A DNA stretch of 26,367 nt from Gemmatimonadota bacterium (GTDB lineage: Bacteria; Gemmatimonadota; Gemmatimonadetes; Longimicrobiales; RSA9), in the NCBI GenBank assembly GCA_040905425.1, contig JBBDRO010000046.1:4836-31202 (forward strand), given 5' to 3'. Below, piece by piece: positions 2,605 through 16,095 of the stretch. The notes under the pieces are model-generated. The model was not told where the DNA came from and made no database searches. It saw nothing but the letters and a program-made list of their open reading frames with translations. The translations under genes and the position numbers were made by a program. Every line of letters begins with the position of its first letter. Position 1 is the first letter of the stretch.

Positions 2605-3353
2605 CCCACCACCGCTCCCCCCTCGCGGCGCACCAGCTCCACGAAGACGTCCTCCAGCGAGGCGTCCGGCGTCTCCAGCCGCGCCCGCAGCTCCCCCGGC
2701 GTGCCCTCGGCAATGACCCGCCCACGGTTCATGAGGAGCAGCCGGTTGCAGTACTCGGCCTCCTCCATGTAGTGCGTGCTCACCAGCACCGTGGTGCCGC
2801 CCTCGGCCAGCGCGTCGATGAGGTCCCAGAAGGCGCGCCGCGCCACCGGGTCCACGCCCGACGTGGGCTCGTCCAGGAAGAGGATGGGCGGCTCGTGCAG
2901 GACGGCGCAGCCGAGCGCCAGACGCTGCTTCCAGCCCAGCGGCAACTCCGCCGTGAGGCGCTTCTCCTGGCCCTCCAGCCCGGCCATCTCCAGCACCCAT
3001 GCGCGGCGCGCACGGAAGCGCTCCCCGGTGACCTCGTAGAGGCCGCCGAAGAGGTCGATGTTCTCCGCCACGGTGAGGTCCCCGTAGAGGGAGAAGAGCT
3101 GCGACATGTAGCCCAGCCGGCCGCGCAGCCGGCGCGACTCCGCGGCCGGATCCAGCCCGGCCACGCGAGCCACGCCGGAGGAGGGCGGCAGCAGCCCCGT
3201 GAGCATGCGGATGGTGGTGGTCTTGCCCGCGCCGTTCGGACCCAGGAAGCCGAACACCTGGCCGGTCTGCACCTGGAATGTGGCGTGGTCCACCGCCACG
3301 AAATCGCCGAAGCGGCGCGTCAGCTCGCGCGCCTGGATGGCCGCCTCAGACAT
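2601..3353 (-). CDS. ABC transporter ATP-binding protein (single NBD, like C-terminal half of YbhF)
   Basis: Walker A GPNGAGKTT, degenerate signature LPLGWKQR, Walker B ILFLDEPTSGVDP, H-loop STHYMEEAE. Confidence 0.95.
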   Translation of the reverse strand: MSEAAIQARELTRRFGDFVAVDHATFQVQTGQVFGFLGPNGAGKTTTIRMLTGLLPPSSGVARVAGLDPAAESRRLRGRLGYMSQLFSLYGDLTVAENIDLFGGLYEVTGERFRARRAWVLEMAGLEGQEKRLTAELPLGWKQRLALGCAVLHEPPILFLDEPTSGVDPVARRAFWDLIDALAEGGTTVLVSTHYMEEAEYCNRLLLMNRGRVIAEGTPGELRARLETPDASLEDVFVELVRREGGAVVG

Positions 3354-4290
3354 CGGCCCCCACGCGCTCGATGAAGACGTCCTCCAGCGACGGGCGGATC
3401 ACCTCCACCCCGTCCACCTCCATGCTGCCGAGCGCCGCACGCACGAGGGCCTCCCCGTCCGCCGCCTCGTCCACCACCACGTGCACCGCCTGGCCGAAGA
3501 GTGACGCGCGTCGCACACCGGGCGCGGCGCGCAACGCGTCGCGCGCGGCCCGGGCCGGACGCGCGCGGACCGCGAGCAGGGAGCCGTGCATCGTCGCTTG
3601 CAAACGGGCCGGTGTGTCCAGATCCAGGATGCGGCCCTGGTGCAGCATGGCCACGCGGTGGCAGCGCTCGGCCTCGTCCAGGTAGGAGGTGGTGAGCACG
3701 ATGGTGACGCCGCGCTCGTTCATCTCGCGCAGGATGGCCCACAGCTCGCGGCGCGAGATGGGGTCCACGCCGAAGGTGGGCTCGTCCAGGAGGAGCAGTT
3801 CGGGCTCGTGGATGAGGGCGCAGGAGAGCGCCAGCTTCTGCTTCATGCCGCCCGACAGGTTGGCGGCCAGGCGGTCGGTGAAGGGCCCGAGATTGGAGAA
3901 GCGGTAGAGGCGCTCCAGGCGCTCCGGGCGCGCCGCGCGGGGCACGCGGTAGAGGTCCGCGTAGAAGCGCAGATTCTCCGCCACGGTGAGGTCCCCGTAG
4001 AGGCCGAAGCGCTGGGCCATGTAGGCCACGCGCGGCTTGGCGCCCTCGGGGTCGGTGCCCACGTCCACGCCCAGCACCTCGGCCCGCCCGCCGCTGGGCG
4101 GCAGCACGCCGGCCAGCATGCGCAGCGTGGTGGTCTTGCCCGCGCCGTCGGGGCCCACGATGCCGAACAGCTCGCCGCGCCGCACCTCCAGCGCCAGCCC
4201 GTCCACCGCCGTGAGCGGACCGAAGCGGCGCGTCAGTCCGGAGAGCCGCACCACCGGATCATAAGCGACGGTCACTTCATCCGCGTTCAT
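3346..4290 (-). CDS. ABC transporter ATP-binding protein (single NBD, like N-terminal half of YbhF)
   Basis: Walker A GPDGAGKTT, signature LSGGMKQK, Walker B LLLLDEPTFGVDP; H-loop reads TTSYLDEAE (His absent). Confidence 0.95.
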   Translation of the reverse strand: MNADEVTVAYDPVVRLSGLTRRFGPLTAVDGLALEVRRGELFGIVGPDGAGKTTTLRMLAGVLPPSGGRAEVLGVDVGTDPEGAKPRVAYMAQRFGLYGDLTVAENLRFYADLYRVPRAARPERLERLYRFSNLGPFTDRLAANLSGGMKQKLALSCALIHEPELLLLDEPTFGVDPISRRELWAILREMNERGVTIVLTTSYLDEAERCHRVAMLHQGRILDLDTPARLQATMHGSLLAVRARPARAARDALRAAPGVRRASLFGQAVHVVVDEAADGEALVRAALGSMEVDGVEVIRPSLEDVFIERVGADV

Positions 4291-5300
4291 CGCGCTCCGT
4301 CCGCCGTCGGCGGCCCGGCACCCGCCAGCGTCACGTCCGCCGGCATGCCGGGCTTCAGCTGGCCGGCGCTGTCACCCGTCACCGCCACCTTCACCGCGTA
4401 GACCAGCTTCACGCGCTCCTCGGGCGTCTGCACGTTGCGCGGCGTGAACTCGGCCTGGCTGGCAATGAAGGTCACGCGCCCCTCGTAGGCGCGCTCGGGG
4501 TAGCTGTCCACCGTGATGCGGGCGGCCTGCCCGAGCGCCACGCGGCCCACCCGGTCCTCCGCCACGTAGATGCGCACCCAGCGATCGTTCGGGTCCATCA
4601 CCGTGAGCACGGGCTGGCCGGGGCCGACCGCCTCCCCCTCTTCGCGATGGCGCACCGTCACCACGCCCGCGAAGGGCGCGCGGATGAGCGCGTTGTCGAG
4701 TGCGGCGTCCACCTGCTGTAACGCCGCCTGGGTCTGGCGGTGCTGCGCGGCCGCGGCGTCGATGCGCTCCTGGCGGGGGCCCGTGCGGGTGAGGTCCAGC
4801 TGCTCGGCCGCCTGGTCGCGGGCGGCGCGGGCCACCTCGGCGGCCGTGGCGGCGCGCTCCAGCGCCTCCTGGCTGATGGCCCCGCCCGCGTGCAGCCGCT
4901 CCGCGCGCTGGTGGGCGCGGACGGCCTCGGCCAGCCGGGCCGCGGCGGCCTGCAGCGCCGCCTCCGCCTGGCGCCGCTCCTCCGGGCGGGGCCCGCGCCG
5001 GACCTCCGCCAGCGCCGCCGCGGCGGCGTCCTCCTGCGCGGCGGCAGCGCCGCGCAGGGCGGCCAGCTCGGCCGTGTCCAGCATGGCCAGCGGCTGTCCC
5101 ACAGCCACTCGCTCTCCCTCGCCGACGTGCATGGCCGCCACGCGTCCGCCGGCCTGGAAGCCCAGGTCCGCCTCGCGCGCCTCCACCGTGCCCGAGGCGC
5201 CGAGAGTGTCCTCCGGTTCGCTCCCGCCGAGCACCAGCCAGGCGGTGACGGCCAGCGCCGCCACCAGGATGAGGGCCGCCGCAATGCGCTTGGGTGTCAT
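4287..5300 (-). CDS. HlyD/YbhG-family periplasmic adaptor (membrane fusion protein)
   Basis: N-terminal TM anchor, ASGTVEA, lipoyl half-motifs (VGEGERV, IRAPFAGVV), long Ala-rich helical hairpin, AEFTPRNVQTPEER and LKPGMPADV motifs. Confidence 0.93.
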   Translation of the reverse strand: MTPKRIAAALILVAALAVTAWLVLGGSEPEDTLGASGTVEAREADLGFQAGGRVAAMHVGEGERVAVGQPLAMLDTAELAALRGAAAAQEDAAAAALAEVRRGPRPEERRQAEAALQAAAARLAEAVRAHQRAERLHAGGAISQEALERAATAAEVARAARDQAAEQLDLTRTGPRQERIDAAAAQHRQTQAALQQVDAALDNALIRAPFAGVVTVRHREEGEAVGPGQPVLTVMDPNDRWVRIYVAEDRVGRVALGQAARITVDSYPERAYEGRVTFIASQAEFTPRNVQTPEERVKLVYAVKVAVTGDSAGQLKPGMPADVTLAGAGPPTADGAR

Positions 5301-6727
5301 GTCTCCGCCTCCGTGTTGCCGGCCAGCCAGTCCAGGGTCAGGGCCCCCGTGGCGCGCGCCAGGGCGGCCCGCGCCGTGAGCGCCTCCGAGCGTGCCTCCA
5401 CCAGGCCGGCCCGCGCACGGAAGAGCTCCGCTTCAGCCGCCAGCCAGTCCGTCTGTGTGCCGGCGCCCTCGTCCAGCGCCAGCCGTTCGATGCGCGCCAC
5501 CTCGGCGTACTGGGTGACCGCCGCGTCCAGCGCCCCGGCCCGGGCCGTGGCCGCGGTGAGCGCCACCAGCGCGGCGTCCGCGGCGGCGGCCGCGCGGAGC
5601 TCCGCCAGGCGCAGGTCGGCCTCGGCGGCGGCCAGCTCGGCGCCGGCCCGGTCGGCGGCCGCGCCCCGTGCGCCGCCCGTGAAGAGCGGGTAGGCCACCC
5701 GCACGCCGCCCTGCCACTCGGCCGTGAAGTTCCCCGCCGTGGAGCCGTAGCCGCTGTAGCGGGCCATGGCGTCCACGCGCGGCAGCCAGAGGGCGCGCGC
5801 CTCCCCGCCGCTGGCGCGGGCGGCCGCCACGCGCCGGCGCGCCGCCGCCACCTCCGGGCTGGCCTCCGCGGCCCGCGCGGCCGCATCGGCGTGCGTGGGC
5901 GGCTCCGGCGGCGCGGCAGGCGGCGGCTCCAACGGCCGCTCGCGCACCTCCGCCGGCGCCGCCCCCATGAGCCGCGCCAGCTCCCGCTCCGCCGCGTCCA
6001 GGCGCGCCGCCGCCCCCAGCGAATCCGCCCGCGCCGTGGCCAGCGCCGCGTCGGCGCGGAGCACCACCAGCCGCGCCGCGCTGCCCTCCGCCAGCAGCTG
6101 CCCGGCGCGCGCGCTCTCGGCCCGGATGGCCGCCATGCGCGCGCCCGCCGCCGCCACCACCTGGCGGGCCGCCGCCAGCGCGCCGTACTGGCGCACCACG
6201 CTCACCAACAGCGCCTGCCGCGCCCCGCGGAGCCCCTCGGCCGCGGCCTCCGCCAGCGCCCCGGCGCGCTCGCTCCGTGCGCCCCGGGCCCCGCCGTCCC
6301 ACGCCGTCCAGCTGAGCCCCACGTTGCCCTGCGTGAGCGTGCGCTCGAAGGCGGGCACGTTGGCGGGATCGAAGGCGTGCAGCGGCGCCACGATCATGGG
6401 CTCCTGGAAGTGCGTGAGCGCGCTCTCGAGCGCCACCTGCGGCAGGCGCGCCGCGGCGGCCTCCGCCACCCCGCTCTGCGCCCGCGCCTCGGCGGCGGAG
6501 GCCGCCGCTATGGACGGATGGCTGGCCAGGGCACGCCGTCCGGCCTCCGCCACGGTGAGGGGCGCGGACTGTGCCGCCGCGGGCCGGGACGCGCCTGGCG
6601 CCGTCGTGGCGGCGGGCGGCGCCGTGTCCTGCCCCGCGAGGGGCGCGGCCAGCGGGCCGGCACCTGCCGCTGCGGCGGCGGCCAGCACGCTTAGCGCCAG
6701 GGTCCCGAGCGCGTGCGTGTGTCTCAT
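5297..6727 (-). CDS. TolC-family outer membrane efflux protein
   Basis: Signal peptide, two OEP-like repeats (RLPQVAL...WTAWDGG; WLPRVDA...YPLFTGG), C-terminal ALARATG; sits between TetR and HlyD genes. Confidence 0.9.
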   Translation of the reverse strand: MRHTHALGTLALSVLAAAAAAGAGPLAAPLAGQDTAPPAATTAPGASRPAAAQSAPLTVAEAGRRALASHPSIAAASAAEARAQSGVAEAAAARLPQVALESALTHFQEPMIVAPLHAFDPANVPAFERTLTQGNVGLSWTAWDGGARGARSERAGALAEAAAEGLRGARQALLVSVVRQYGALAAARQVVAAAGARMAAIRAESARAGQLLAEGSAARLVVLRADAALATARADSLGAAARLDAAERELARLMGAAPAEVRERPLEPPPAAPPEPPTHADAAARAAEASPEVAAARRRVAAARASGGEARALWLPRVDAMARYSGYGSTAGNFTAEWQGGVRVAYPLFTGGARGAAADRAGAELAAAEADLRLAELRAAAAADAALVALTAATARAGALDAAVTQYAEVARIERLALDEGAGTQTDWLAAEAELFRARAGLVEARSEALTARAALARATGALTLDWLAGNTEAET

Positions 6728-7392
6728 GTTCGCTCCTCCAGAGCGGCGCGGACAAAGGATGCCGCGTGATCGGCCAGGCCGCGGCGCGTCTCCGGCTCCT
6801 GGACGTCCACGCCGGTGAATGCCTGCAGCGGGCGCTGCACCAGGTTCAGGTGGATGGGCACGGACAGGATGCTGATCCCCATGAGGGCTGGATCCCCATC
6901 GCGGATGCTGCCCTCCATCTGCCCCTCCATGACCAGCCCCGTGAGCGCGCGGATCATGTCACCGAGCGGACCGCCCAGGGCCTGGGGCGGGCGGTCGGCC
7001 AGCAGCACACGCAGCATGAGACCCGGAATCCACGGATGGTCGTGCAACTGCTCGAAGTGGGTGCGCGCCACCTCACCCACGCGCTCCAGCGGCGGCGCGT
7101 CCCGGCCCACCACCCTCTTCACTGCCTCAACGAGAGGGCGGAGCGCACTGGTCACCACCGCGGCGTAGAGGCCCTCCTTGGAGCCGAAGTGGTAGGTGAT
7201 GGCGCCCAGGTTGGCGCCCGCGGCGGCGGTGATCTCGCGCACCGACACGCCGTCGTAGCCGCGCGCGCCGAAGCGGGGCGTGGCGGCGGCCACGAGCGCC
7301 AGGGCGGTTTCGTGCTCCGGCGCTGCCACCGCCTGCGGGCGGTCCGTGAACTCGGCCACGCGGGCACTGAACCAGCGATCTGATTGATTCAT
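6724..7392 (-). CDS. TetR/AcrR-family regulator (CecR/YbiH-like) of the efflux operon
   Basis: C-terminal half of ORF 6724..8055; HTH FGARGYDGVSVREITAAAGANLGAITYHFGSKEGLY. Start at ATG 7392 is a best guess; a downstream GTG is possible. Confidence 0.88.
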   Translation of the reverse strand: MNQSDRWFSARVAEFTDRPQAVAAPEHETALALVAAATPRFGARGYDGVSVREITAAAGANLGAITYHFGSKEGLYAAVVTSALRPLVEAVKRVVGRDAPPLERVGEVARTHFEQLHDHPWIPGLMLRVLLADRPPQALGGPLGDMIRALTGLVMEGQMEGSIRDGDPALMGISILSVPIHLNLVQRPLQAFTGVDVQEPETRRGLADHAASFVRAALEERT

Positions 7393-7406
7393 ACGTTTGT
7401 ATGAAT
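7387..7406. promoter_or_regulatory. Palindromic operator, probably bound by the adjacent TetR
   Basis: Perfect inverted repeat ATTCATAC-GTTT-GTATGAAT, AT-rich in a very GC-rich background, overlapping the tetR start codon and putative -10. Confidence 0.7.
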
Positions 7407-7430
7407 AGCATGGCGAGCGCTTTCCGTCAA
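7402..7430 (-). promoter_or_regulatory. Putative sigma70 promoter of the tetR-tolC-hlyD-ABC operon
   Basis: Minus strand TTGACG (7430-7425), 17 nt spacer ending in TGC, then TATTCA (7407-7402): good -35, imperfect extended -10. Confidence 0.5.
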
Positions 7431-7582
7431 GGACCATGGGCGCACCTGTTCCCGCCGCCGTGCTGTCGGGATCGACCCCACAGACTTTCCGCCCCTCCCT
7501 GACAGACCCTTCCCCTGTGCGCCGCCTAGCTTTCCGGCGGACCCACGGCGGACCCACGGTGGCCGGAAACGCAGGAGAGCCG

Positions 7583-10500
7583 ATGACCGTTCCCACCCCC
7601 GCAGCGCCGCGCACCGAAGCGCCACCCGCCAACCTTGCTGCGCCCGCCGAGCGCGGGGCCCGCGCGCGCCTCCTGTCAGGCAACGAGGCCATTGCGCGCG
7701 GGGCGTGGCAGGCGGGGGTGGTGGTGGGCTGCGGGTACCCGGGCACACCCAGCACGGAGATCCTGGAGGCGCTGGCGGCGCTCCCCGACGTGGACTGCCA
7801 GTGGTCCCCCAACGAGAAGGTGGCGCTGGAGGTGGGGGTGGGCGCCTCGCTGGCGGGCGGCCGGGTGCTCGTCACCATGAAGCACGTGGGCCTGAACGTG
7901 GCGGCCGATCCCTTCTTCTCCGCCGCGTACATGGGCGTGAACGGCGGTCTGGTGGTGGTGAGCGCCGACGACCCGGGCATGCACTCCTCGCAGAACGAGC
8001 AGGACAACCGGCTCTTCGCGCGGGCCGCCCGGGTGCCGCTGCTCGAGCCCGCCACGCCCGCGGAGGCGCTCGACTACACCGCGGCCGCCTTCGCGCTCTC
8101 GGAGCGCTTCGATACGCCCGTCCTGCTGCGCACCACCTCGCGCCTCTCGCACGGCAAGGCGGCGGTGCCGCTCGCGCCGCGCCATGACCGGCTGCCCCGC
8201 CGTTACCGTAAGAACGCCACCAAGAACGTGGTGCTGCCGGCCCACGGCCGGGCGCGCCACCGCCTCATCGAGGAGCGGCGCATGCCCGGGCTGGTGCAGC
8301 AGGCCGAGCGCATGGCCCTGGTCCACGCCGGCACGGGGGACGTGGCGTTTATCACGGCCGGCGTACCCTACCTCTATGTGCGCGAGGCCTTCCCGGCCGC
8401 CGCCGTGCTGAAGCTGGGCATGACCCATCCGCTGCCCGTGGACGTGATCCGTCGCTTCGCGGCCGCCCACCCGCGCGTCCTGGTGGTGGAGGAGCTGGAG
8501 CCCATGCTGGACGAGCAGGTGCGCGCCCTGGGCATTGCCACGCTGCCGCGCACCTGGCCCCGCTACGGCGAGCTCAGTGTGGAGGCTCTCCATGCCGCCC
8601 TTTCAAGCGACGTCCCCGCGCCGGCCGCCGTGGCGCTGCCCGTCCTTCCCGTCCGGCCTCCCGTCCTCTGCCCGGGGTGCTCGCATCGCGGCGCCTTCCA
8701 CGCGCTGAGCCGCATGGACGCCATCGTTTCCGGGGACATCGGCTGCTACACCCTGGGAGCGGTTGCGCCCCTGGCCGCCATGGACGCGTGCATGAACATG
8801 GGCGCCTCCATCGGCATGGCCGCGGGCATGGCCATGGTGCTTCCCGAAGCCGACCGCGCACGGGTGGTGGCCGTCATCGGGGACTCCACCTTCTACCACT
8901 CCGGTATCACGGGGCTGGTGGACGTGGTCTACAACGGCGGCGCGGCCACCGTGCTGGTGCTGGACAACCACACCACGGCCATGACCGGCCACCAGGACCA
9001 TCCCGGCACCGGCCGGCGGCTGAACCAGGAGCCCGCGGGAACGGTGAGCATCGAGGGGGTGGTGCGGGGACTGGGCGTGGCGGATGTCCGCCGCCTGGAC
9101 CCCTACGACCTCATGGCCGCGTGGCGCACGCTGGACGGGGCCGCGGCCACCGACGCGCCCACGGTACTCCTGGCCGAGGCGCCGTGCGTGCTGAAGGAGC
9201 GTGTGGTCTTCGGGGAGCCTGTCATCCTGGACGCCGACGCCTGCACCGACTGCCACGCGTGCGCGGCACTCGGCTGCCCCGCCATCCAGGAGGTGGACGG
9301 CCGGCTGGCCGTGGACCCCCTCCAGTGCACCGCCTGCACGCACTGCCAGCAGGTGTGCGCCGACTGCAACGCCGGCATCGACATCCCGCTGGTGCTGGAG
9401 CTGGTGGCCCGCGACCGCCTCGAGGAGGCCTATCACACGCTGGTGCGCGCCAACCCCTTCCCCGCCGTGGCGGGGCGGGTCTGCCCGCACCCGTGCGACC
9501 ACGCCGTGAATGCCCTGGGCTTCGACCAGCACACCCGCTGGGCGGCCAGCTACCCCGAGCTGCTGGCGCGCTTTCCGGACGCTGCCCACGACGGGCAGAT
9601 CTCCATCCGCCATGTGGAGCGCTGGCTGGGCGACTGGGGTCTGGAACACGTCCCGGGCCGGGCCTTCCAGCCCGCCGAGGAGCGCGGCCAGCGCGTGGCG
9701 GTGGTGGGCGCCGGCCCGGCCGGTCTGGCGGCCGCCTGGCACCTGCGGCGCGGCGGCTTCCGCGTCACGGTCTTCGAGGCCGGGGACGCGCCCGGCGGCA
9801 TGCTGCGCCACGGCATTCCTTCCTTCCGCCTGCCACGCTGGGTGGTGGACGGCGAAGTGCACCGCCTGGAGGAGATGGGCGTCCGCTTCCGCTGCGGGAT
9901 CCGGGTGGGGCGCGACTTCCCCTTCGAGGAGATTCTGGAGGCCCACGAGGCGATCATCGTGGCCACCGGCGCGGGCGCGCCGCGGGAGGCGGGCATCGAT
10001 GGCGCCGAGGAGGCGCTCGGCGTCTGGGACGGTGTGGACTTCCTGGCGCGCTTCAACCGGGGGGACCCGCCTCCGGTGGGGGGACGGGTGGCGGTGGTGG
10101 GTGGCGGGAACACCGCAGTGGACTGCGCCCGCGCCGCGCGGCGGGCGGGCGCTCAGGTGAGCGTGGTGTACCGGCGCGGTGAGGCGGAGATGCCGGCCAT
10201 TCCGGACGAGGTGGACGAGGCGCGGGACGAGGGTGTGGAATTCCACTTCCACGAGCTGCCCAGGCGCGTGGTCACCGACGCCCGCGGCGGCCTCGTGGGC
10301 GTGGAACTGGTGCGCATGGCGGCGGGCGCGCCCGATGCCAGCGGCCGCGCCGCGCCGGTCGAAGTGGTGGGCAGCGAGCGCACCGTGCCCTATGACACGG
10401 TCATCCTGGCCATCGGCGAGCGCCCCGACCTGGCCTTCCTGGGTGGCGTGGACATCCGCACGAACGGCCGGGTGGAGGTGCGCTTCACCGGCGCCACCAG

Positions 10501-10624
10501 CCGCGAGGGCGTCTTTGCCTGCGGCGATGCGGCGTTCGGCCACGGCACTGTGACCCAGGCCATTGCCACGGGCCGGCGCGTGGCCGAGGCGGCCACGAGC
10601 TGGCTGGCGGGGAGGGCGCGGTGA
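7583..10624 (+). CDS. iorA: Indolepyruvate:ferredoxin oxidoreductase alpha subunit fused to a GltD-like FAD/NAD(P)H oxidoreductase domain
   Basis: ATG 7583 with AGGAGA RBS. IorA motifs LLSGNEAIARGA, GYPGTPSTEI, NEKVALE, MKHVGLNVAADP, SSQNEQDNR, RPPVLCPGCSHR, GDIGCYTLG, IGDSTFYHSG, LDNHTTAMTGHQ; 2x[4Fe-4S] motifs; then GIDIP, NPFPAVAGRVCPHPC, VVGAGPAGL, GIPSFRLP, GGGNTAVD, YRR, GVFACGD. Confidence 0.92.
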   Translation: MTVPTPAAPRTEAPPANLAAPAERGARARLLSGNEAIARGAWQAGVVVGCGYPGTPSTEILEALAALPDVDCQWSPNEKVALEVGVGASLAGGRVLVTMKHVGLNVAADPFFSAAYMGVNGGLVVVSADDPGMHSSQNEQDNRLFARAARVPLLEPATPAEALDYTAAAFALSERFDTPVLLRTTSRLSHGKAAVPLAPRHDRLPRRYRKNATKNVVLPAHGRARHRLIEERRMPGLVQQAERMALVHAGTGDVAFITAGVPYLYVREAFPAAAVLKLGMTHPLPVDVIRRFAAAHPRVLVVEELEPMLDEQVRALGIATLPRTWPRYGELSVEALHAALSSDVPAPAAVALPVLPVRPPVLCPGCSHRGAFHALSRMDAIVSGDIGCYTLGAVAPLAAMDACMNMGASIGMAAGMAMVLPEADRARVVAVIGDSTFYHSGITGLVDVVYNGGAATVLVLDNHTTAMTGHQDHPGTGRRLNQEPAGTVSIEGVVRGLGVADVRRLDPYDLMAAWRTLDGAAATDAPTVLLAEAPCVLKERVVFGEPVILDADACTDCHACAALGCPAIQEVDGRLAVDPLQCTACTHCQQVCADCNAGIDIPLVLELVARDRLEEAYHTLVRANPFPAVAGRVCPHPCDHAVNALGFDQHTRWAASYPELLARFPDAAHDGQISIRHVERWLGDWGLEHVPGRAFQPAEERGQRVAVVGAGPAGLAAAWHLRRGGFRVTVFEAGDAPGGMLRHGIPSFRLPRWVVDGEVHRLEEMGVRFRCGIRVGRDFPFEEILEAHEAIIVATGAGAPREAGIDGAEEALGVWDGVDFLARFNRGDPPPVGGRVAVVGGGNTAVDCARAARRAGAQVSVVYRRGEAEMPAIPDEVDEARDEGVEFHFHELPRRVVTDARGGLVGVELVRMAAGAPDASGRAAPVEVVGSERTVPYDTVILAIGERPDLAFLGGVDIRTNGRVEVRFTGATSREGVFACGDAAFGHGTVTQAIATGRRVAEAATSWLAGRAR

Positions 10625-11235
10625 GCGCTCCGGCCGCCGTCGGCGCCCGCACCGTGAATCTGGTGCTGGCCGGGGTGGGTGGGCAGGGCTCCGTGCTGGC
10701 CACCCAGATCGTGGGCCAGGCCGCCGTGCTGGCGGGCCACCAGGTGGTGACCTCGGAGGTGCACGGCATGTCCCAACGGGGCGGTACGGTAGTCACGGCG
10801 GTACGCTACGGCGCCGACCCCGGCGCGCCCACCGTGCCCCGCGGGGAGGCGGACTACCTCGTGGCATTCGAGCGGCTGGAGGGCCTCCGCTTCCTGCCCT
10901 GGCTCCGGCCGGGCGGCACCGTGGTGCTGAACAACCAGGCCATCCGCCCCACCGTGGAGTCCCTCAAGCTGACGGGCTATCCCACGGAGATCGAGGAGCG
11001 CCTCCGGGCGCACGCCGGCACCGTGCTGGTCACGCCGGCGCTGGCACTGGCCAGGGGCATCGGCAATCCCAGGCTGGTCAGCACGGCCGTCCTCGGCGCC
11101 CTCTCCGTGGTACTCGATCTGCCGCGTGAGGCCTGGGAGAAGGCCGTGGCGGGCGCGGTGCCACGACATACGGTGGAGGCCAACCTGGAAGCGTTCAAGG
11201 AGGGGGCACTTATGGCACGCTGGGTGACGTCATGA
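10621..11235 (+). CDS. iorB: Indolepyruvate:ferredoxin oxidoreductase beta subunit
   Basis: AGVGGQG and SEVHGMSQRGGTV motifs, AFERLE, C-terminal EANLEAFKEG; GTGA overlap with iorA. Confidence 0.93.
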   Translation: MSAPAAVGARTVNLVLAGVGGQGSVLATQIVGQAAVLAGHQVVTSEVHGMSQRGGTVVTAVRYGADPGAPTVPRGEADYLVAFERLEGLRFLPWLRPGGTVVLNNQAIRPTVESLKLTGYPTEIEERLRAHAGTVLVTPALALARGIGNPRLVSTAVLGALSVVLDLPREAWEKAVAGAVPRHTVEANLEAFKEGALMARWVTS

Positions 11236-11600
11236 ACATCTGCATTCCTACCGTGGACAACAGTGGCCTGAAGGCGCGGCTTTTTCCCCATTTCGGGAGC
11301 GCCCCGTTTTTCACGATCGTGCGGGCGGAGACGCTGGAGGCTCGATCGCTTGCCAACGAGCATGCCAGGCACGAGCACGGGGCCTGTCGACCCATGGCGG
11401 CCCTGGCGGGCCTGGACGTGGACGTGGTGCTCTGCCGCGGCCTGGGTGCGCGTGCCCTGGAGCGGCTGCGAAGCGGCGGAATCAGTGTCATGGTGGCCGA
11501 CGCCTGGCACGTGGACGAGGCGCTGCGCGCGCTGCGCAAGGGCAGGGCGCGGCCGCTGTTCACCGTGGACGCCTGCCAGGGCGGGCCTCACGAGCACTGA
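11232..11600 (+). CDS. NifB/NifX-family (dinitrogenase FeMo-cofactor-binding fold) small protein
   Basis: 122 aa, ICIP...HFGSAPFF, His-rich HARHEHGAC, VDVVLCRGLGARALERLRSGGI; ATGA overlap with iorB. Confidence 0.8.
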   Translation: MNICIPTVDNSGLKARLFPHFGSAPFFTIVRAETLEARSLANEHARHEHGACRPMAALAGLDVDVVLCRGLGARALERLRSGGISVMVADAWHVDEALRALRKGRARPLFTVDACQGGPHEH

Positions 11601-11618
11601 GGTCGGGCGCGCTCCCCG

Positions 11619-12707
11619 CTACTCCGCGGTGAGCGCCGGCTCGTAGCTGAGCGCCTCCTCTTCCCCGCGCACCACCCGCAGGGCGCCCTCCGCCAGCGCC
11701 CGTAGTTCGTCCTCCCCCGGATAGACGTGCACCGGCGCGATCCACGCCAGGCGCTCGCGCAGCTCCTCGGCCACGGCTGCGGCCTGTACCATGCCGCCCG
11801 TGAGCAAGACGGCGTGCACGCGACCGTCCAGCACGGCGGCCATGGCGCCCGCCTCCCGGCGCACCTGATAGAGCATGGCGTCCAGTACCAGGCGGGCCCG
11901 TCGGCTGCCCCGCTCGATGCGGCGCAGGACCTCGCGGACGTCCCGGGTGCCCATGTAGGAGAGCAGGCCGCCGCGGTGTGTGGCGCGCCGGTAGAGGTCG
12001 GCGGCATCCTCCTGGCCCCGGCGGATACGGTCCAGGAGAGCGGCTACCGGCAGACCGCCGGCCCGGTCCGCGCCGAAGGGCCCCTCCTCGCGGGAGTTGC
12101 ACACTTCCACCATGCGAGCCTCCCGGTGCGCGCTCACCGATATCCCGCTGCCCATGTGGACCACCACCAGGCGGAGCTCCGCATACGCGCGATCCACCTC
12201 CCGCGCGTGGCGCCGCGCCACGGCCTTGGTGTTGAGAGCGTGCGAGAGGCAGGTGCGCTCCAGGCCATGCAGCCCCGACAGGCGGGCCACCTCGTCCCAC
12301 TCATCCACGCTGACGGGATCGACCACGTAGGCCGGTGCGCCCGCGGCCTCGGCCAGCCGGACGGCCAGGAACGCGCCCAGGTTGGAGGCGTGCTCACCGC
12401 GCGCGGCGGAGCGCAGGTCATCGAGCATGGCCGGCCCCACCCGGAAGGTGCCGCTCGGTACCGGGCGCAGCAGGCCGCCCCGGCCGGCCACGGCCGTCAA
12501 CCCGGTCGCGTCCGCGCCCTGGCGCTCCAGCTCGGCTTGCACCGCTTCCAGGCGCGGCTCGAGCTGCGCCAGGACGGGCTGGCTCGTGAGCGTTTCGGGG
12601 TGCTCCACCACCGAGACGAAACGCTCGGAGTCACCGTCGAAGAGCCCGAGCTTGGTGGAGGCCGCGCCGGGGTTCAGTGCCAGAATGGTCGGGACGAGTT
12701 GGCTCAT
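11619..12707 (-). CDS. buk: Butyrate kinase-family acyl kinase
   Basis: Start MSQLVPTILALNPGAASTK; GRGGLL, EHASNLG, VVDPVSVDE, HALNTKAVA, VHMGSGISVSAH, GPFGADRAG, LLTGGM, VYPGEDELRALA. Confidence 0.93.
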   Translation of the reverse strand: MSQLVPTILALNPGAASTKLGLFDGDSERFVSVVEHPETLTSQPVLAQLEPRLEAVQAELERQGADATGLTAVAGRGGLLRPVPSGTFRVGPAMLDDLRSAARGEHASNLGAFLAVRLAEAAGAPAYVVDPVSVDEWDEVARLSGLHGLERTCLSHALNTKAVARRHAREVDRAYAELRLVVVHMGSGISVSAHREARMVEVCNSREEGPFGADRAGGLPVAALLDRIRRGQEDAADLYRRATHRGGLLSYMGTRDVREVLRRIERGSRRARLVLDAMLYQVRREAGAMAAVLDGRVHAVLLTGGMVQAAAVAEELRERLAWIAPVHVYPGEDELRALAEGALRVVRGEEEALSYEPALTAE

Positions 12708-12714
12708 GGGCTGA

Positions 12715-13638
12715 CTAGCTCGCGGCCACCACCGCACCAAGCGTGATGCTGTGCAGCTTATCCTGTGCACTTTCGACCCGGGAAGGGATGAGAACCGGCA
12801 CCCGCGCGCCCACCACCACGTGTGCCGTGATGGAGCCGCCCAGGTACTTCACGGCCTTCCCCAGCACATTGCCGGCTTCGATGTTCGGCAGGACCATGAT
12901 GTCGGCCCGTCCCGCCACGGGACCGGTGATGCCCTTGGCACGGGCAGCCGACTCGAGCAACGCGTTGTCCAGGGCCAGCGGGCCGGCCACGTCGGCCTCC
13001 CGCAGGCCGGGCACCTGCCCGGCGGCGGCGCGTGCGGCCAGTTCGGCGGCCGCCACCGTGGACGCAAGCGCTTCACTCACCACTTCCGTGGCGCTCAGCA
13101 GGGCCACGCGCGGACGCGCGAAGCCCAGCGCGTGGAAGACGGCCACGGCATTGCCGGCAATGGCTGCGAGCTGCTCGGGGGTGGGCGCAGGGTTCAGGCC
13201 GCCGTCGGTGACGCCCACCAGGCGCGGCACGCCGGCGAGCGTATCCTCGTAGAGCAGGACGTCACTGAGCAGACGGCCGGTGCGCAGGCCGCGGGCGCGA
13301 TCCAGGACGGCGTGCAGCAGCTCGTCGGTGCGCAGGGCACCCTTGAGCAGCAGCTCCGCCTCGCCGGCGTTGGCCAGCTCAGCGGCGCGGGCGGCGGCCT
13401 CGGCGCCGTTCTCCGCGGCCACGATCCGGGCGCCGCCGAGCGGTGCCAGCGCGTGCTCGCCGATGAGGGCGCGGATGCGGTCGGGAGAGCCGATGAGAAT
13501 GGCTGTGACCATGCCGCCGCTGACAGCCTCGGATGCCGCGTGGAGCGCACTTGGGCTGTCCGCCGCCACCACCGCCAGGCGCGCGGGTCCGAGCTGTGCG
13601 GCCCGCGTCAGCAACGCAGCAAACGTATCGATCCCCAT
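12715..13638 (-). CDS. ptb: Phosphate butyryltransferase-family acyltransferase
   Basis: LLKGALRT, GLRTGRLLS, TDGGLN, PRVALLSATE, GPLALDNA, PVAGRADI, PNIEAGNVLGK, GARVPVLIPSR; directly upstream of buk. Confidence 0.9.
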   Translation of the reverse strand: MGIDTFAALLTRAAQLGPARLAVVAADSPSALHAASEAVSGGMVTAILIGSPDRIRALIGEHALAPLGGARIVAAENGAEAAARAAELANAGEAELLLKGALRTDELLHAVLDRARGLRTGRLLSDVLLYEDTLAGVPRLVGVTDGGLNPAPTPEQLAAIAGNAVAVFHALGFARPRVALLSATEVVSEALASTVAAAELAARAAAGQVPGLREADVAGPLALDNALLESAARAKGITGPVAGRADIMVLPNIEAGNVLGKAVKYLGGSITAHVVVGARVPVLIPSRVESAQDKLHSITLGAVVAAS

Positions 13639-13723: not shown

Positions 13724-14971
13724 TCAGGGCGTGCCCTCCACCGAGCGGACCGCCGCCAGCACCTCCGCCTCCGTCAGCAAGCGTTCGGAGCGCTTGGCCG
13801 CGGCAAGTACCGCCTGCACCATCTCATGGGTGGCCGTGATGCCTCGGGCCGCCATAAAATAGTGCACGTTGGAGGCCCCCGACATGTGCCCGATCTCGAT
13901 CTCCTGGAGGCGACCCACCCACCCGGCGGGCACGCCGGAGTAGACCCGATCCGCCAACCAATCCTGCCCCTTGCGCTGCGCTTTAATCACGGCGGCCGCG
14001 TGCACCCCCGTGGCGGTGCGGAAAGCGTCACGCCCCACGATCGGCTGATTGACCGGCACCGGCATGCCGAGCGCCTCGCCCGCCACCTGGCAGTACTCCA
14101 TGAGGCACGACAGGTCGTCATCCCGGAGCCCGAGCAGGCGCAGGTTCACCAGGAGCTGCTCCATGGGCGTATTGCCCACGCGCTCGCCCACGCCCAGCGC
14201 CGTGCCATGCACCCTCGTGGCGCCGGCCTCCACGGCGGCCAGTGAGTTGGCCACGTCCAGGCCGCGGTCCCGGTGCCCGTGCCAGTCAATGCCCACGCGG
14301 TCTGCCACACCCAGTTCGGTGAGCAGCTGCTTCACCCAGTGCGTCAGGTTGCGGACTCCCGCCGGCACGGCGGCCCCGCACGTGTCGCACAGGCAGACAC
14401 GGCTGGCGCCGGCGTCCACCGCCGCGGTCAGGAGCACACGCAGGTGTTCGGGCGCGGAGCGGATGGTATCCTCCGTCACATACATGACCTGGAGTCCCTC
14501 ACCCACCGCGAACTCCACGGCCTGCCGCGTGTGGCGGAGCACGTGATCCAGATCCCACTCCTCCGAGTAGTGCCGGATGGGGCTGCTGCCGATGAAGACG
14601 CACGCCTCGATCGGCACGCCCGTCTTCTGCACCACGTCGGCAATGGGCTGGATGTCCACCACCATCGTGCGCGCCGCGCAGTTGGGCCGGATGGACAGGC
14701 GCTCGCGCTCGATCTCGCGGCAGAGCCGTTCGACGGCGTCCCGCTGGCGTGGCCCGGCACCCGGCAGACCCACGTCGGCGGTATCGATGCCCAGGCGGTC
14801 CATCAGGTGCAGCAGACGAATCTTGAGCTGCACGGGCGGATCCTGCACGGAGGGGCTCTGCAGCCCATCACGTAGCGTCTCGTCATCCAGCATCGGCCGC
14901 GGCGGCAGCGCGTCCTCCGCGCCCGCGGGGGCCCAATCATGGATGAGATCCTGGCCTGTGGTACCGCTCAA
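13724..14971 (-). CDS. LeuA/homocitrate synthase-like DRE-TIM metallolyase lacking the C-terminal regulatory domain
   Basis: DETLRDGLQ, TEDTIR, LCDTCG, HGHRDRG, GVGERVGN, IVGRDAF...GVH, GHMSG. Start placed at TTG 14971 (GGGAG RBS) because the track start at 15073 overlaps the TPR gene. Confidence 0.85.
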   Translation of the reverse strand: MSGTTGQDLIHDWAPAGAEDALPPRPMLDDETLRDGLQSPSVQDPPVQLKIRLLHLMDRLGIDTADVGLPGAGPRQRDAVERLCREIERERLSIRPNCAARTMVVDIQPIADVVQKTGVPIEACVFIGSSPIRHYSEEWDLDHVLRHTRQAVEFAVGEGLQVMYVTEDTIRSAPEHLRVLLTAAVDAGASRVCLCDTCGAAVPAGVRNLTHWVKQLLTELGVADRVGIDWHGHRDRGLDVANSLAAVEAGATRVHGTALGVGERVGNTPMEQLLVNLRLLGLRDDDLSCLMEYCQVAGEALGMPVPVNQPIVGRDAFRTATGVHAAAVIKAQRKGQDWLADRVYSGVPAGWVGRLQEIEIGHMSGASNVHYFMAARGITATHEMVQAVLAAAKRSERLLTEAEVLAAVRSVEGTP

Positions 14972-15002
14972 GGTCCGCGTCTCCCAGCTGATGGGTGGCC
15001 GA

Positions 15003-15707
15003 TCAATGGGCGTTCGCGCTGGCAAACTGGCGCGCCTGATCCAGGAGGCGGACGGCGCCCGCCTCATCGCCACGGGAGCGCCGGATGTGCGCCAGGTGGA
15101 AGAGGCTGCTCACCTCACCCACGCCCTCGTCCAGACTCCGCTGGAACTCGCGTTCGGCGGCATCCAGATCGCCGCGGCGCTCGTGGATCACGCCCCTGTG
15201 ATAGCGGGCCATGAGGTACTCGGGCGTGAGCGCGGAGCATTTCTCGAAGTGCTCCAGCGCTTCGTCCAGTTCCCCCGCATGAAAGAGCGCTATGGCCAGC
15301 CGGTAATGGGCGGCGTAGTAGTGCTCGTCCAGCTCGAGGCAGCGGCGGTAGGCCCGGATGGCATCGGGCATGTTGCCCCGATGATAATGGGCCACCCCCA
15401 GGTCGTAGGAACAGAGTACGAAGGCGGGAGAAATCTCGAGCGCCCGGGCGTAGCGCTCGATGGCCAGGTCGAGCGTCCCCTGGTGGAAGTACACCGTGCC
15501 CAGGAGATGGTGGGCCAGGGCATTGTCCGCCTCGGCCTCTACCAGGCGCTTTAGTTCGCGGCGCGCCTCACGGTGTTCACCGGCGGTTTCGCGATGGAGT
15601 GCGTGCAGGATCCTGTGATCAATGAAGGCGTCGCGCAGAAACATCCCGCACTCGGCGCAGAATTTGTCCGTGGCGGCGGCGTCGTGGCCGCATCTAGGGC
15701 ACCGCAT
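15003..15707 (-). CDS. Zinc-ribbon plus tetratricopeptide repeat protein
   Basis: N-terminal CPRCG-x8-FCAECG zinc ribbon followed by about 5 TPR-like units (AHHLLGTVYFHQG, YDLGVAHYHRG, AHYRLAIALFHAG, ARYHRGVIHERRG); GGAGG RBS. Confidence 0.85.
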   Translation of the reverse strand: MRCPRCGHDAAATDKFCAECGMFLRDAFIDHRILHALHRETAGEHREARRELKRLVEAEADNALAHHLLGTVYFHQGTLDLAIERYARALEISPAFVLCSYDLGVAHYHRGNMPDAIRAYRRCLELDEHYYAAHYRLAIALFHAGELDEALEHFEKCSALTPEYLMARYHRGVIHERRGDLDAAEREFQRSLDEGVGEVSSLFHLAHIRRSRGDEAGAVRLLDQARQFASANAH

Positions 15708-15785
15708 GATCGTGCCTCCAGGCCCCCGCGGAAGGGGCCGCTGGTCCGCGCGTTCTCTGGAGGGTGGCGCCCGAACTGGACCGTA

Positions 15786-16091
15786 TCAGGAATCGGGCGC
15801 CCGCCGGGTGTAGATCACCCGGAAGCTCAGCATGGCCACGAGCTGGCAGTCCGCGCAATCCTCACCCCCGATTTCCATGCCCGCCACGGGATCGGCCACC
15901 ACCTCGAAGCCCAGCTCCGCGTACAGCTCCATGAGCTCCGCGGCACGCCGGCCGTCAGCCACGCAGCGGCGCTCCCAGCCGTCCGCGAGCCGGGCCGGAT
16001 CGGCGCCGCCGAGTTCGGCGGCCCGAGCCCGGTGCGCCTCCAGGCGGAGGAGTCCCGCCAGCGCCGCTTCCGAACGCTCGCCGGTGGTCAT
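15786..16091 (-). CDS. Small hypothetical protein (101 aa) with CxxC motif
   Basis: Start MTTGERSEA (ATG 16091, 4 nt after the bcrD stop); GWERRC...LYAELGFEV...EDCADC...VIYTRR; fills the gap in the operon. Confidence 0.72.
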   Translation of the reverse strand: MTTGERSEAALAGLLRLEAHRARAAELGGADPARLADGWERRCVADGRRAAELMELYAELGFEVVADPVAGMEIGGEDCADCQLVAMLSFRVIYTRRAPDS

Positions 16092-16095
16092 CGCC

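What the first reader, a model, noticed from the sequence alone, without database searches (positions are those of the whole stretch)
7583..10624. IorA fused to a GltD-like NAD(P)H flavoprotein module
Seen: one 1013-aa ORF with a complete IorA (about 590 aa) followed in frame by about 420 aa of glutamate synthase beta/NfnB-like sequence; GGGNTAVD...YRR suggests NADP(H) preference. Known: typical IorA ends after its ferredoxin domain and reduces free ferredoxin; phenylglyoxylate:NAD+ oxidoreductase (Pad) makes benzoyl-CoA using a separate flavoprotein subunit. Inference: an aryl-2-oxoacid:NAD(P)+ oxidoreductase in two polypeptides, or an enzyme that partitions electrons between NAD(P)H and the benzoyl-CoA reductase.
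Basis: partly seen in the sequence, partly recalled or inferred. Interest (0 to 1): 0.75.

Follow-up and report, generated by a model that had tools for sequence, protein, structure and literature searches.

The report
IorA fused to NADPH flavoprotein module
A real gene in an uncultured Gemmatimonadota bacterium joins an enzyme that breaks down amino-acid-derived keto acids to an NADPH-binding flavoprotein, so it probably hands its electrons straight to NADP+ instead of to free ferredoxin; the design recurs in many uncultured bacteria but I found no study of it.

Summary
Window 7583-10624 (+) is one 1013-aa ORF: a complete IorA (residues 29-593) joined in frame to a GltD/NfnB-like FAD/NADPH module (581-1011), followed by iorB. 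It is not an assembly artefact. 100 of 120 listed protein clusters have the same full-length architecture, and contigs from three sequencing runs bridge the junction.

The join is a splice. IorA's last cluster motif runs straight into the GltD module (CxxCxxCxxxCxxC). One GltD-type cysteine is always missing. I count 11 invariant Cys plus a conserved Glu, enough for three clusters where the parent proteins would have four.

Most likely function (inferred, untested): a ferredoxin-independent 2-oxoacid:NADP+ oxidoreductase. In Gemmatimonadota it works with the adjacent ptb-buk genes to yield ATP.

The benzoyl-CoA reductase link is weak: 3 of 32 fused loci. All three GltD-like modules in this genome are attached to 2-oxoacid oxidoreductases. 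The two oxidoreductase gene sets without such a module lie beside rnf genes.

A second, differently ordered IorA-GltD fusion also exists. This scan had already found the same fusion in two other genomes.

Verdict: an uncharacterised new variant of a known kind (Pad, KorABC, PNO). Interest is moderate.

The parts
7583..10624 (+). iorA-gltD fusion gene, 1013 aa
   Evidence: start supported by AGGAGAG at -10 to -4
7667..9361 (+). IorA module (residues 29-593): POR_N, TPP-binding domain, four invariant Cys for the TPP-side cluster (C363, C366, C388, C535), two ferredoxin-type motifs (C554/557/560/565 and C582/585/588/592)
9326..9367 (+). Junction Cys run C582-x2-C585-x2-C588-x3-C592-x2-C595; IOR_alpha and gltA models overlap here (residues 581-593)
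9365..10615 (+). GltD/NfnB-like module (residues 595-1011): C595, C634, C638, D/E639, E679, FAD-site GxGxxG 709-714, R749, NADPH motif 840-847 and YRR 863-865
10621..11235 (+). iorB (POR gamma-type subunit); start overlaps the iorA-gltD stop by 4 nt
   Evidence: follows the fused gene in 28 of 30 public loci, the other two being cut by contig ends
11232..11600 (+). Nitro_FeMo-Co family gene overlapping the iorB stop by 4 nt; role unknown, specific to this locus
   Evidence: no homologue in 42 other loci
11619..12770 (-). butyrate-kinase-type acyl kinase (buk), convergent with the ior operon
   Evidence: TIGR02707 389 bits, above cut-off 289; adjacent to the fused gene in 10 of 30 public loci plus L060
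12715..13638 (-). phosphate acyltransferase (ptb type)
   Evidence: PF01515; best NCBIfam models fall below their cut-offs

Best explanation
IorA-GltD plus IorB form a ferredoxin-independent, CoA-acylating 2-oxoacid:NADP+ oxidoreductase. The substrates are probably arylpyruvates or other amino-acid-derived 2-oxoacids. The TPP site decarboxylates the 2-oxoacid. The two electrons then travel one at a time through the TPP-side [4Fe-4S] cluster and three further clusters, which are built from IorA's ferredoxin domain and the remnant of the GltD iron-sulfur domain. They reach the FAD, which passes a hydride to NADP+. In Gemmatimonadota the acyl-CoA product is then turned by Ptb and Buk into the free acid plus ATP. 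What is shown: the domain content, the conserved ligands and motifs, how widely the fusion recurs, and its gene neighbours. What is inferred: the direction of electron flow, NADP+ as the acceptor, the substrate, and which cysteine binds which cluster.
For: (1) Domains and motifs. IorA is complete and the FAD and NADPH sites are intact and conserved. GxGxxG is kept in 46-47 of 47 homologues, GGGNTAxD in 47 of 47 and YRR in 46-47 of 47. The same VYRR..EMPA stretch aligns to the NADPH-binding subunits T. maritima NfnB (4ylf_B) and P. furiosus NfnI-L (5jca_L).

(2) A continuous ligand set. Eleven Cys between 554 and 638 are invariant in 47 of 47. E679 (45 of 47) aligns with the Glu of 'LERF' in both Nfn structures and with K170 of 9bov_A. 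The StnC paper says that this Lys/Glu position ligates the FAD-proximal cluster (PMC10482914, passages read). In NfnB, ferredoxin docks at the iron-sulfur end of the module (PMC5861303, passages); here IorA's own ferredoxin domain is fused at that end.

(3) Independent recurrence of the pairing. A second architecture, IorA(TPP)-GltD-ferredoxin domain with frames of 1122-1134 aa, occurs in 3 of 301 genomes sampled from the phylum. The nearest stand-alone relatives of the module (40-48% identity) are GltD-delta fusion subunits of four-subunit 2-oxoacid oxidoreductases.

(4) The same genome. All 3 GltD-like modules found sit in or beside 2-oxoacid oxidoreductase genes (C46, C67, C96). The korAB-like and PFOR-like genes without such a module lie with rnfB-like and rnfD genes on C17.

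(5) ptb-buk lies next to the fused gene in every Gemmatimonadota-labelled locus that has at least 3 kb of downstream DNA. An OFOR + phosphate acyltransferase + acyl kinase trio has been demonstrated biochemically for arylpyruvate conversion to arylacetate plus ATP (PMC13285125, abstract and passages).

(6) Thermodynamics, from established knowledge: 2-oxoacid oxidation (about -500 mV) can easily reduce NADP+ (-320 mV).
Against: No activity, cofactor or expression data exist; no RNA run was listed. TIGR03336 scores 612 against a cut-off of 651, and the IorB models score 188 against 237, so the substrate class is not secured. One canonical GltD/NfnB cysteine (position 642) is absent in 47 of 47 homologues, so the remnant cluster may be altered, may be a 3Fe cluster, or may be missing. 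Without coordinates I could not check that the clusters lie within electron-transfer distance of the FAD. The Arg that sits at N5 of the bifurcating FAD in NfnB is conserved here (R749, 45 of 47), so a more complex flavin chemistry is not excluded, although the non-bifurcating StnC keeps that Arg too. Giving up low-potential electrons to NADP+ wastes energy, and the benefit to the cell is only conjectured.
Confidence: 0.6

Rival explanations
1. Electron-supply enzyme for the neighbouring class I benzoyl-CoA reductase. 2-oxoacid oxidation would deliver low-potential electrons to the BCR, directly or through a ferredoxin, by analogy with KGOR in Thauera (recalled). The GltD module would act as an overflow valve to NADP+, so electrons are split between NADPH and ring reduction.
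For: The window holds a complete dearomatisation cluster 8.5 kb away: Oah scores 553 against a cut-off of 464, Had 460 against 339, and there are four BCR-type subunits. No ferredoxin gene lies in that cluster. iorA lies within 9 kb of bcrC in 8 of the 46 phylum genomes that have a BcrC orthologue, spread over 4 genera and mostly with unfused iorA. Two further fused loci, L011 and L029, have BCR genes alongside. The C595/C634/C638 site corresponds to the part of NfnB nearest its ferredoxin-docking side.
Against: BCR genes are near the fused gene in only 3 of 32 fused loci. 9 of 16 other BCR loci have no 2-oxoacid oxidoreductase within 20 kb. Where iorAB is near BCR it always comes with an HMGL-like block, so the link may be to that block and not to BCR. 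The genome has ferredoxin-type korAB-like and PFOR-like genes next to rnf on C17, which could serve the BCR. A fused NADP+ sink would compete with the BCR for the electrons.
Confidence: 0.12
2. Flavin-based electron bifurcation or confurcation. The NfnB-derived FAD would couple NADP(H) to two one-electron partners, the IorA cluster chain and an external ferredoxin or other protein. This could drive reductive carboxylation of acyl-CoA or generate extra-low-potential electrons.
For: The closest solved relatives of the module are the bifurcating NfnB/NfnI-L subunits. The Glu ligand position (E679) and the N5 Arg position (R749) are each conserved in 45 of 47 homologues.
Against: No NfnA-type partner (PF10418) was found in the genome, which is 96.7% complete, and none lies next to the gene. 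StnC shows that the same fold, with the same Arg, works without bifurcating (PMC10482914). One cluster's worth of ligands has been lost, which leaves a single linear wire as the simplest reading.
Confidence: 0.08
3. Anabolic direction. Buk and Ptb would activate an imported arylacetate or branched-chain acid, and the fused enzyme would carboxylate the acyl-CoA reductively to the 2-oxoacid for amino-acid synthesis, using NADPH.
For: The steps of the OFOR/phosphate acyltransferase/kinase trio are reported to be reversible with ferredoxin (PMC13285125, abstract).
Against: With NADPH alone the reaction runs uphill by roughly 180 mV (established potentials, recalled). No importer gene is adjacent; the neighbouring ABC-2/HlyD/OEP genes look like an efflux system.
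Confidence: 0.06
4. The GltD module does not use pyridine nucleotides for catalysis here. It would act as a redox sensor or reduce another acceptor such as polysulfide or a disulfide, as some NfnB/SudA relatives do.
For: Nfn1 of P. furiosus also reduces polysulfide (PMC5861303, passage).
Against: The NADPH-binding motifs are invariant in 47 of 47 homologues.
Confidence: 0.04

Closest known systems
Indolepyruvate:ferredoxin oxidoreductase IorAB (Pyrococcus furiosus type; TIGR03336/TIGR03334)
   Same: Residues 29-593 match the full model (positions 3-591 of 595), with TPP domains, a four-Cys TPP-side cluster and a two-motif ferredoxin domain. iorB follows the gene.
   Different: About 420 extra residues carry FAD and NADPH sites. 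The scores fall just below the curated cut-offs. Free ferredoxin is probably not the acceptor.
NfnB / NfnI-L, GltD and the GltD domain of StnC (PDB 4ylf_B, 5jca_L, 2vdc_G, 8oh5_C, 9bov_A)
   Same: The fold family matches, with E-values from 1e-52 to 1e-78. The FAD and NADPH motifs, the Glu/Lys ligand position and the N5 Arg position all align.
   Different: The first iron-sulfur motif is replaced by or merged with IorA's last ferredoxin motif. The third Cys of the second motif is absent in 47 of 47 homologues. No NfnA partner or glutamate synthase large subunit is present.
NF009410 (PRK12771) 'NAD(P)-binding protein': GltD-delta fusion subunits in 2-oxoacid oxidoreductase operons, uncharacterised as far as I could find
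   Same: These are the nearest stand-alone relatives of the module, at 40-48% identity. Two are encoded in this genome next to porGAB-like and korAB-like genes. In Bipolaricaulota one sits in the same operon as the fused iorA.
   Different: In those proteins the flavoprotein precedes a PorD-type ferredoxin domain in a separate subunit. Here it follows IorA's ferredoxin domain in the alpha subunit. The window protein matches only model positions 105-448 of 566, scoring 360 against a cut-off of 516.
Pyridine-nucleotide-reducing 2-oxoacid oxidoreductases: phenylglyoxylate:NAD+ oxidoreductase PadEFGHI, 2-oxoglutarate:NADP+ oxidoreductase KorABC of Azoarcus evansii, pyruvate:NADP+ oxidoreductase of Euglena/Cryptosporidium
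   Same: The principle is the same: an OFOR core wired to a flavoprotein that reduces NAD(P)+. Pad and KorABC details are recalled and I read neither paper. KorABC was also named in earlier scan notes. For PNO I saw only the title in a reference list.
   Different: The flavoprotein is a separate subunit in Pad and KorABC, and a P450-reductase-type domain in PNO. The OFOR core there is not of the IOR type. Homology of PadH or KorC to this module was not tested.
HpdDEFG-HpdJ-HpdK trio of Clostridium scatologenes (PMC13285125)
   Same: It combines an arylpyruvate-oxidising OFOR, a phosphate acyltransferase (PF01515) and an acyl kinase (PF00871) to give arylacetate plus ATP. The paper notes that IOR-type clusters often lie near the same two families.
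   Different: It is a four-subunit, ferredoxin-reducing enzyme with no flavoprotein module.

Membership tests
IOR alpha subunit (TIGR03336) | Full-length match above the curated equivalog cut-off | tested here: not met
   612.4 bits against a cut-off of 650.9; the match covers model positions 3-591 of 595
IOR alpha subunit (TIGR03336) | POR_N plus TPP-binding domain, a four-Cys TPP-side cluster and a C-terminal ferredoxin domain with two motifs | tested here: met
   All 12 Cys are invariant in 47 of 47. GDS at 433-435 and N462 are conserved (the identity of this motif as the TPP-binding motif is recalled).
IOR alpha subunit (TIGR03336) | Adjacent iorB | tested here: met
   PF01558 E 1e-41. The best model is IorB-type NF005322 at 188 bits, below its cut-off of 237.
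IOR alpha subunit (TIGR03336) | Arylpyruvate specificity and ferredoxin as acceptor | not testable with these tools
   Needs an enzyme assay
NfnB / GltD-type iron-sulfur flavoprotein | FAD and NADPH Rossmann motifs (Pyr_redox_2) | tested here: met
   PF07992 E 2e-35 on 704-997; motifs conserved in 46-47 of 47
NfnB / GltD-type iron-sulfur flavoprotein | Two complete N-terminal [4Fe-4S] motifs (seven Cys plus Glu/Gln/Lys) | tested here: not met
   Only C595, C634 and C638 are contributed beyond IorA's own Cys. Position 642 is never Cys (0 of 47). The Glu position E679 is kept in 45 of 47.
NfnAB transhydrogenase | NfnA partner with [2Fe-2S] and FAD | tested here: not met
   PF10418 was not found in the genome, which is 96.7% complete; none is adjacent
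NF009410 GltD-delta subunit | Full-length match above the cut-off, including the C-terminal PorD-type ferredoxin domain | tested here: not met
   360 bits against a cut-off of 516, on model positions 105-448 of 566 only. The C67 paralogue passes at 531 bits.
Pad / KorABC type NAD(P)+-reducing OFOR | 2-oxoacid-dependent reduction of NAD(P)+ by an OFOR-flavoprotein complex | not testable with these tools
   This is a functional criterion.

The most novel reading that the evidence does not exclude
The spliced junction leaves a branch in the electron wire. IorA's last ferredoxin-type cluster would take the place of NfnB's FAD-proximal, Glu-ligated cluster. The leftover C595/C634/C638 site would be a side exit on the face where NfnB docks ferredoxin. 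The enzyme could then divide the two electrons of each 2-oxoacid between NADP+ and a low-potential acceptor such as the ferredoxin of the neighbouring benzoyl-CoA reductase, or couple the two acceptors energetically. That would be a new kind of electron-partitioning 2-oxoacid oxidoreductase.
Probability: 0.1. Interest if true: 0.8.

Novelty: new variant of a known kind. Interest (0 to 1): 0.45.

Why it matters
If the enzyme reduces NADP+ directly, a whole set of uncultured bacteria oxidise amino-acid-derived 2-oxoacids without a free ferredoxin pool. These include Gemmatimonadota, Bipolaricaulota, Fraserbacteria and some Acidobacteriota. Genome-based metabolic reconstructions currently annotate the gene simply as 'indolepyruvate ferredoxin oxidoreductase alpha' or 'FAD-dependent oxidoreductase', so their electron and energy budgets for these organisms would change.

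The fusion is also a compact natural design: TPP, four clusters, FAD and an NADPH site in two polypeptides. That could be useful for NADPH regeneration or acyl-CoA production.

The two opposite domain orders and the spliced cluster motifs give a clear case for studying how electron wires are assembled from modules.

Tried and rejected
**Assembly artefact.** Rejected.

**Structure prediction.** The tool did not accept a job. No model, fold search or cluster-to-FAD distances were obtained, so cluster connectivity stays open.

**Family tree.** A neighbour-joining tree without support values (42 sequences, 567 columns) puts most class-1 fused IorA parts together. Five divergent fused members (P0098-P0106) fall beside unfused ones, so I make no claim of a single origin. 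Class 2 is clearly separate.

**RNA evidence.** No RNA holder was listed.

**Benzoate-CoA ligase in the genome.** The best TIGR02262 match scores 234 bits against a cut-off of 375, so none was identified with this model.

**Ferredoxin gene beside the BCR genes.** None was seen among ORFs of 35 aa or more at 15500-16250.

**Literature.** None returned a paper describing an IorA-GltD/NfnB fusion. IorA+NfnB gave 0 papers. Indolepyruvate + 'NADPH-dependent glutamate synthase' + fused gave 0 papers. A 2026 review of PFOR diversity (PMC13768988, term search only) has no occurrence of 'glutamate synthase'. The library lacks most subscription journals, and supplements were not read.

**Papers not held.** The bzd cluster paper, Andersson and Roger 2002, Demmer 2015, Ebenau-Jehle 2003 and Dorner and Boll 2002 could not be read. 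What I say about BzdV architecture, Pad and KorABC is therefore recalled or taken from short passages (BzdV is a 'putative NADPH:ferredoxin oxidoreductase').

**Promoter and terminator scan of 7200-12000.** Nothing was found.
Full report
**1. What is there**

Window 7583-10624 (+) translates to 1013 residues without a stop. The frame is open from 7436. However, the ATG at 7583 is preceded by AGGAGAG at -10 to -4, and homologues align from about residue 25-30.

Pfam places POR_N at 40-210, TPP_enzyme_C at 385-528, Fer4_10 at 547-592, Fer4_20 at 583-639 and Pyr_redox_2 at 704-997. NCBIfam matches IOR_alpha (TIGR03336) over residues 29-593, model positions 3-591 of 595, with E 7e-184. The score of 612 bits is just under the cut-off of 651. 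NADPH-dependent glutamate synthase/NfnB-type models match over 581-1011.

iorB follows with a 4-nt overlap, then a Nitro_FeMo-Co family gene, again with a 4-nt overlap.

**2. The fusion is not an artefact**

- Of the 120 best clusters (90% identity) in the 5.8-billion-protein collection, 100 are single proteins of 912-1064 aa that cover at least 95% of the query at 47-92% identity.
- A scan of one genome per species returned 30 loci of this type. By their record labels, 13 are Gemmatimonadota, 11 Bipolaricaulota/Acetothermia, 3 'Thermotogae', 2 Fraserbacteria and 1 Thermoanaerobaculia.
- 29 of the 30 carry the junction in frame. The 30th stops at its contig end.
- Logan contigs from three runs bridge position 9359 with no variant, indel or joint. 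All three runs are from one study and one may be the source sample.
- A search with the 131-residue junction segment alone, against 1.84 billion 50%-identity representatives, found 3 hits at E up to 1e-30 and 5 at E up to 1e-28. The fusion is therefore one tight family, not a loose collection.
- This scan had already met the same fusion in two other genomes (e1-2207519, e1-1398240). My results agree with those notes.

**3. Anatomy of the join**

Unfused IorA proteins end 10-20 residues after the fourth Cys of their second ferredoxin motif, CxxCxxCxxxC. In the fused protein that motif (C582, C585, C588, C592) is followed two residues later by C595. C595 aligns with the last Cys of the first iron-sulfur motif of T. 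maritima NfnB, just before the shared '(I/V)DIP' stretch. The IOR_alpha and gltA models overlap at exactly this point, residues 581-593.

Further on, the CPHPC pair (C634, C638) aligns with the second NfnB/GltD motif. The third Cys of that motif is present in 9bov_A (CPHPCEEAC) and in T. maritima NfnB (C..C...C). In the fused family it is V, T, I, R or F and never Cys, in 0 of 47 aligned homologues. Position 639 is Asp or Glu in 44 of 47.

E679 (45 of 47) aligns with the Glu of 'LERF' in both Nfn structures and with K170 of 9bov_A. The StnC paper states that Lys170 of StnC, replaced by Glu in NfnB, ligates the cluster next to the FAD (PMC10482914, passages). That 9bov_A's K170 is the same position as StnC's K170 is my inference, from the identical numbering and architecture.

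Between residues 554 and 680 there are thus 11 invariant Cys plus E679. That gives 12 ligands, enough for three [4Fe-4S] clusters. A plain concatenation of IorA and NfnB would have four. With the TPP-side cluster (C363, C366, C388, C535, all 47 of 47), the alpha subunit would hold four clusters, TPP and FAD.

I could not decide which Cys binds which cluster, because no model with coordinates was obtained.

**4. The flavoprotein end**

GxGxxG (709-714), GGGNTAxD (840-847) and YRR (863-865) are conserved in 46-47 of 47 homologues. They align with the same motifs of the NADPH-binding subunits NfnB and NfnI-L. R749 (45 of 47) sits at the position of R201 of P. furiosus NfnL, which contacts N5 of the bifurcating FAD. 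StnC, which does not bifurcate, keeps that Arg as well, so it says nothing either way.

No NfnA-type partner (PF10418) was found in the genome, which is 96.7% complete.

**5. A recurrent theme**

Three lines of evidence show that joining a GltD-type module to a 2-oxoacid oxidoreductase is a repeated solution.

(a) Three of 301 genomes sampled from the phylum carry a second architecture at 37-39% identity. Its order is IorA(TPP part), then a complete NF009410-type GltD module, then the ferredoxin domain at the C-terminus. This is the opposite domain order, so it arose as a separate event.

(b) The nearest stand-alone relatives of the window's module (40-48% identity) are proteins of 550-590 aa. 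JGI names them 'glutamate synthase beta subunit-like oxidoreductase / 2-oxoacid:ferredoxin oxidoreductase delta subunit'.

(c) In the window's own genome, the only three GltD-like modules found are:
- the fused one on C46;
- a 579-aa GltD-delta protein between porG-like and porA/porB-like genes on C67, which passes NF009410 at 531 bits against a cut-off of 516;
- a 655-aa GltD-ferredoxin protein upstream of korA/korB-like genes on C96.

The two remaining sets of 2-oxoacid oxidoreductase genes (korAB-like and PFOR-like) have no such module. They lie with rnfB-like and rnfD genes on C17. No hydrogenase was found. The genome therefore seems to keep two separate wirings: a ferredoxin/Rnf branch and an NADPH-module branch.

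In Bipolaricaulota locus L013, porG, GltD-delta, porA, porB, iorA-gltD and iorB form one gene string. A second GltD-like gene lies at the same upstream position in 11 of the 30 loci.

**6. Neighbours and likely pathway**

iorB follows the fused gene in 28 of 30 loci; the other two are cut by contig ends. A convergent ptb-buk pair lies downstream in 10 of the 30 loci, in L060 and in the window. That is every Gemmatimonadota-labelled locus with at least 3 kb of downstream DNA. Buk passes the butyrate kinase equivalog (389 bits against a cut-off of 289); Ptb scores below its cut-offs.

A 2026 study showed biochemically that an arylpyruvate:ferredoxin oxidoreductase, a phosphate acyltransferase and an acyl kinase convert 4-hydroxyphenylpyruvate to the arylacetate with ATP gain. 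It also noted that IOR-type clusters often sit near PF01515 and PF00871 genes (PMC13285125, abstract and passages). The window's set fits that pattern, with NADP+ in place of ferredoxin.

**7. The benzoyl-CoA reductase question**

The minus strand from 23985 to 11619 carries a co-directional string: had, oah, an SDR gene, dch, four BCR-type subunit genes, a conserved 104-aa ORF, a TPR gene, an HMGL-like gene, ptb and buk. Oah and Had pass their equivalog cut-offs. The BCR subunits score best against Thauera-type models but below the cut-offs.

In the sample of 301 genomes from the phylum, 46 have a BcrC orthologue (at least 65% identity). In 8 of those 46, from 4 genera, iorA lies within 9 kb. 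Seven of the eight have an ordinary unfused iorA (loci L061, L075-L077). In the five such loci I inspected (the window, L061, L075-L077), iorAB sits next to the HMGL-like gene. A TPR gene lies beside it in the window, L061 and L076, and an isopropylmalate-dehydrogenase-like gene in L061 and L075-L077. That block also occurs beside BCR genes without iorAB (L068, L080). 9 of 16 other BCR loci have neither the block nor any 2-oxoacid oxidoreductase within 20 kb.

Among fused loci, BCR genes are nearby in 3 of 32 (window, L011, L029). In the unsupported neighbour-joining tree, the BCR-linked unfused IorA (L061) does not group with the fused proteins.

The link to BCR is therefore real but local to some lineages, and it is not a property of the fusion. 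The idea that the fused enzyme feeds the BCR remains a minority rival.

**8. Mechanism I commit to (confidence 0.6)**

2-oxoacid + CoA + NADP+ gives acyl-CoA + CO2 + NADPH. This happens within IorA-GltD/IorB through TPP, four clusters and FAD. Ptb and Buk then yield the acid plus ATP.

Shown: the domains, ligands, motifs, recurrence and gene context. Inferred: the acceptor, the direction, the substrate and the cluster connectivity.

Thermodynamically the reaction is strongly downhill, from about -500 mV to -320 mV (recalled values; ferredoxin near -420 mV is quoted in PMC5861303). It would make 2-oxoacid oxidation independent of a ferredoxin-recycling system.

**9. Comparison with known systems and novelty**

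In principle the enzyme works like the pyridine-nucleotide-reducing 2-oxoacid oxidoreductases. These are phenylglyoxylate:NAD+ oxidoreductase PadEFGHI and Azoarcus KorABC (both recalled; the papers were not held) and Euglena/Cryptosporidium PNO (title seen in a reference list).

It is not a member of any characterised family. It falls below the IOR_alpha cut-off, lacks one defining cluster motif of NfnB/GltD, has no NfnA partner and covers only the core of NF009410.

Ten literature searches found no description of an IorA-GltD fusion. The library lacks most subscription journals and I read no supplements.

I rate it a new variant of a known kind. It is of moderate interest to people who work on 2-oxoacid oxidoreductases, flavin/iron-sulfur electron wires and the metabolism of uncultured phyla.

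Noticed in passing
window 15786-16100 (-): A conserved 104-aa ORF lies directly after the last BCR ATPase-subunit gene. It has no Pfam or NCBIfam match. tblastn finds homologues at the same position in 14 of 16 other Gemmatimonadota BCR loci and in L061. It may be an unrecognised BCR accessory protein.
   Followed up: partly
window 13724-15707 (-); L061, L068, L075-L077, L080: An HMGL-like gene (isopropylmalate/homocitrate-synthase-like, 449 aa) lies after the BCR genes in the window and in 5 of 16 other BCR loci. A TPR gene accompanies it in the window and some loci, and an isopropylmalate-dehydrogenase-like gene in some relatives. In the window and four other loci the block sits next to iorAB. 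Its role is unknown; it could be 2-oxoacid chain elongation or a Re-citrate-synthase-like function.
   Followed up: partly
L057:5923-9318, L058:5632-8997, L059:5288-8689: A second IorA-GltD architecture has the flavoprotein inserted before the ferredoxin domain. The open frames are 1122-1134 aa, at 37-39% identity to the window protein, and iorB lies downstream.
   Followed up: partly
own genome: C67 (L062 5395-9785), C96 (L063 5867-10729), C17 (L064 3717-13690; rnfD at C17:48185-49126): Two further 2-oxoacid oxidoreductase operons carry GltD-ferredoxin fusion subunits. The two oxidoreductase gene sets without such a module lie next to rnf genes.
   Followed up: partly
window 11232-11600 (+): A Nitro_FeMo-Co (NifX/NifB-C-like) family gene is translationally coupled to iorB. 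No homologue was found in 42 related loci.
   Followed up: partly
window 7388-7405: The inverted repeat TTCATAC-GTTT-GTATGAA lies at the start of the divergently transcribed TetR gene that heads the ABC-2/HlyD/OEP efflux genes (344-7400, minus strand). It is a likely operator.
   Followed up: no
own genome: No benzoate-CoA ligase reached the TIGR02262 cut-off; the best match scored 234 bits against 375. This is despite a complete benzoyl-CoA dearomatisation cluster. The adjacent ptb-buk pair might activate the aromatic acid instead, but this is speculation.
   Followed up: no
window 9184-9301: Logan unitigs of runs X1 and X2 break at 9184-9213 and 9272-9301, inside the ferredoxin-motif region. 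This suggests shared words with related strains or paralogues. The stretch is identical in all pieces.
   Followed up: no
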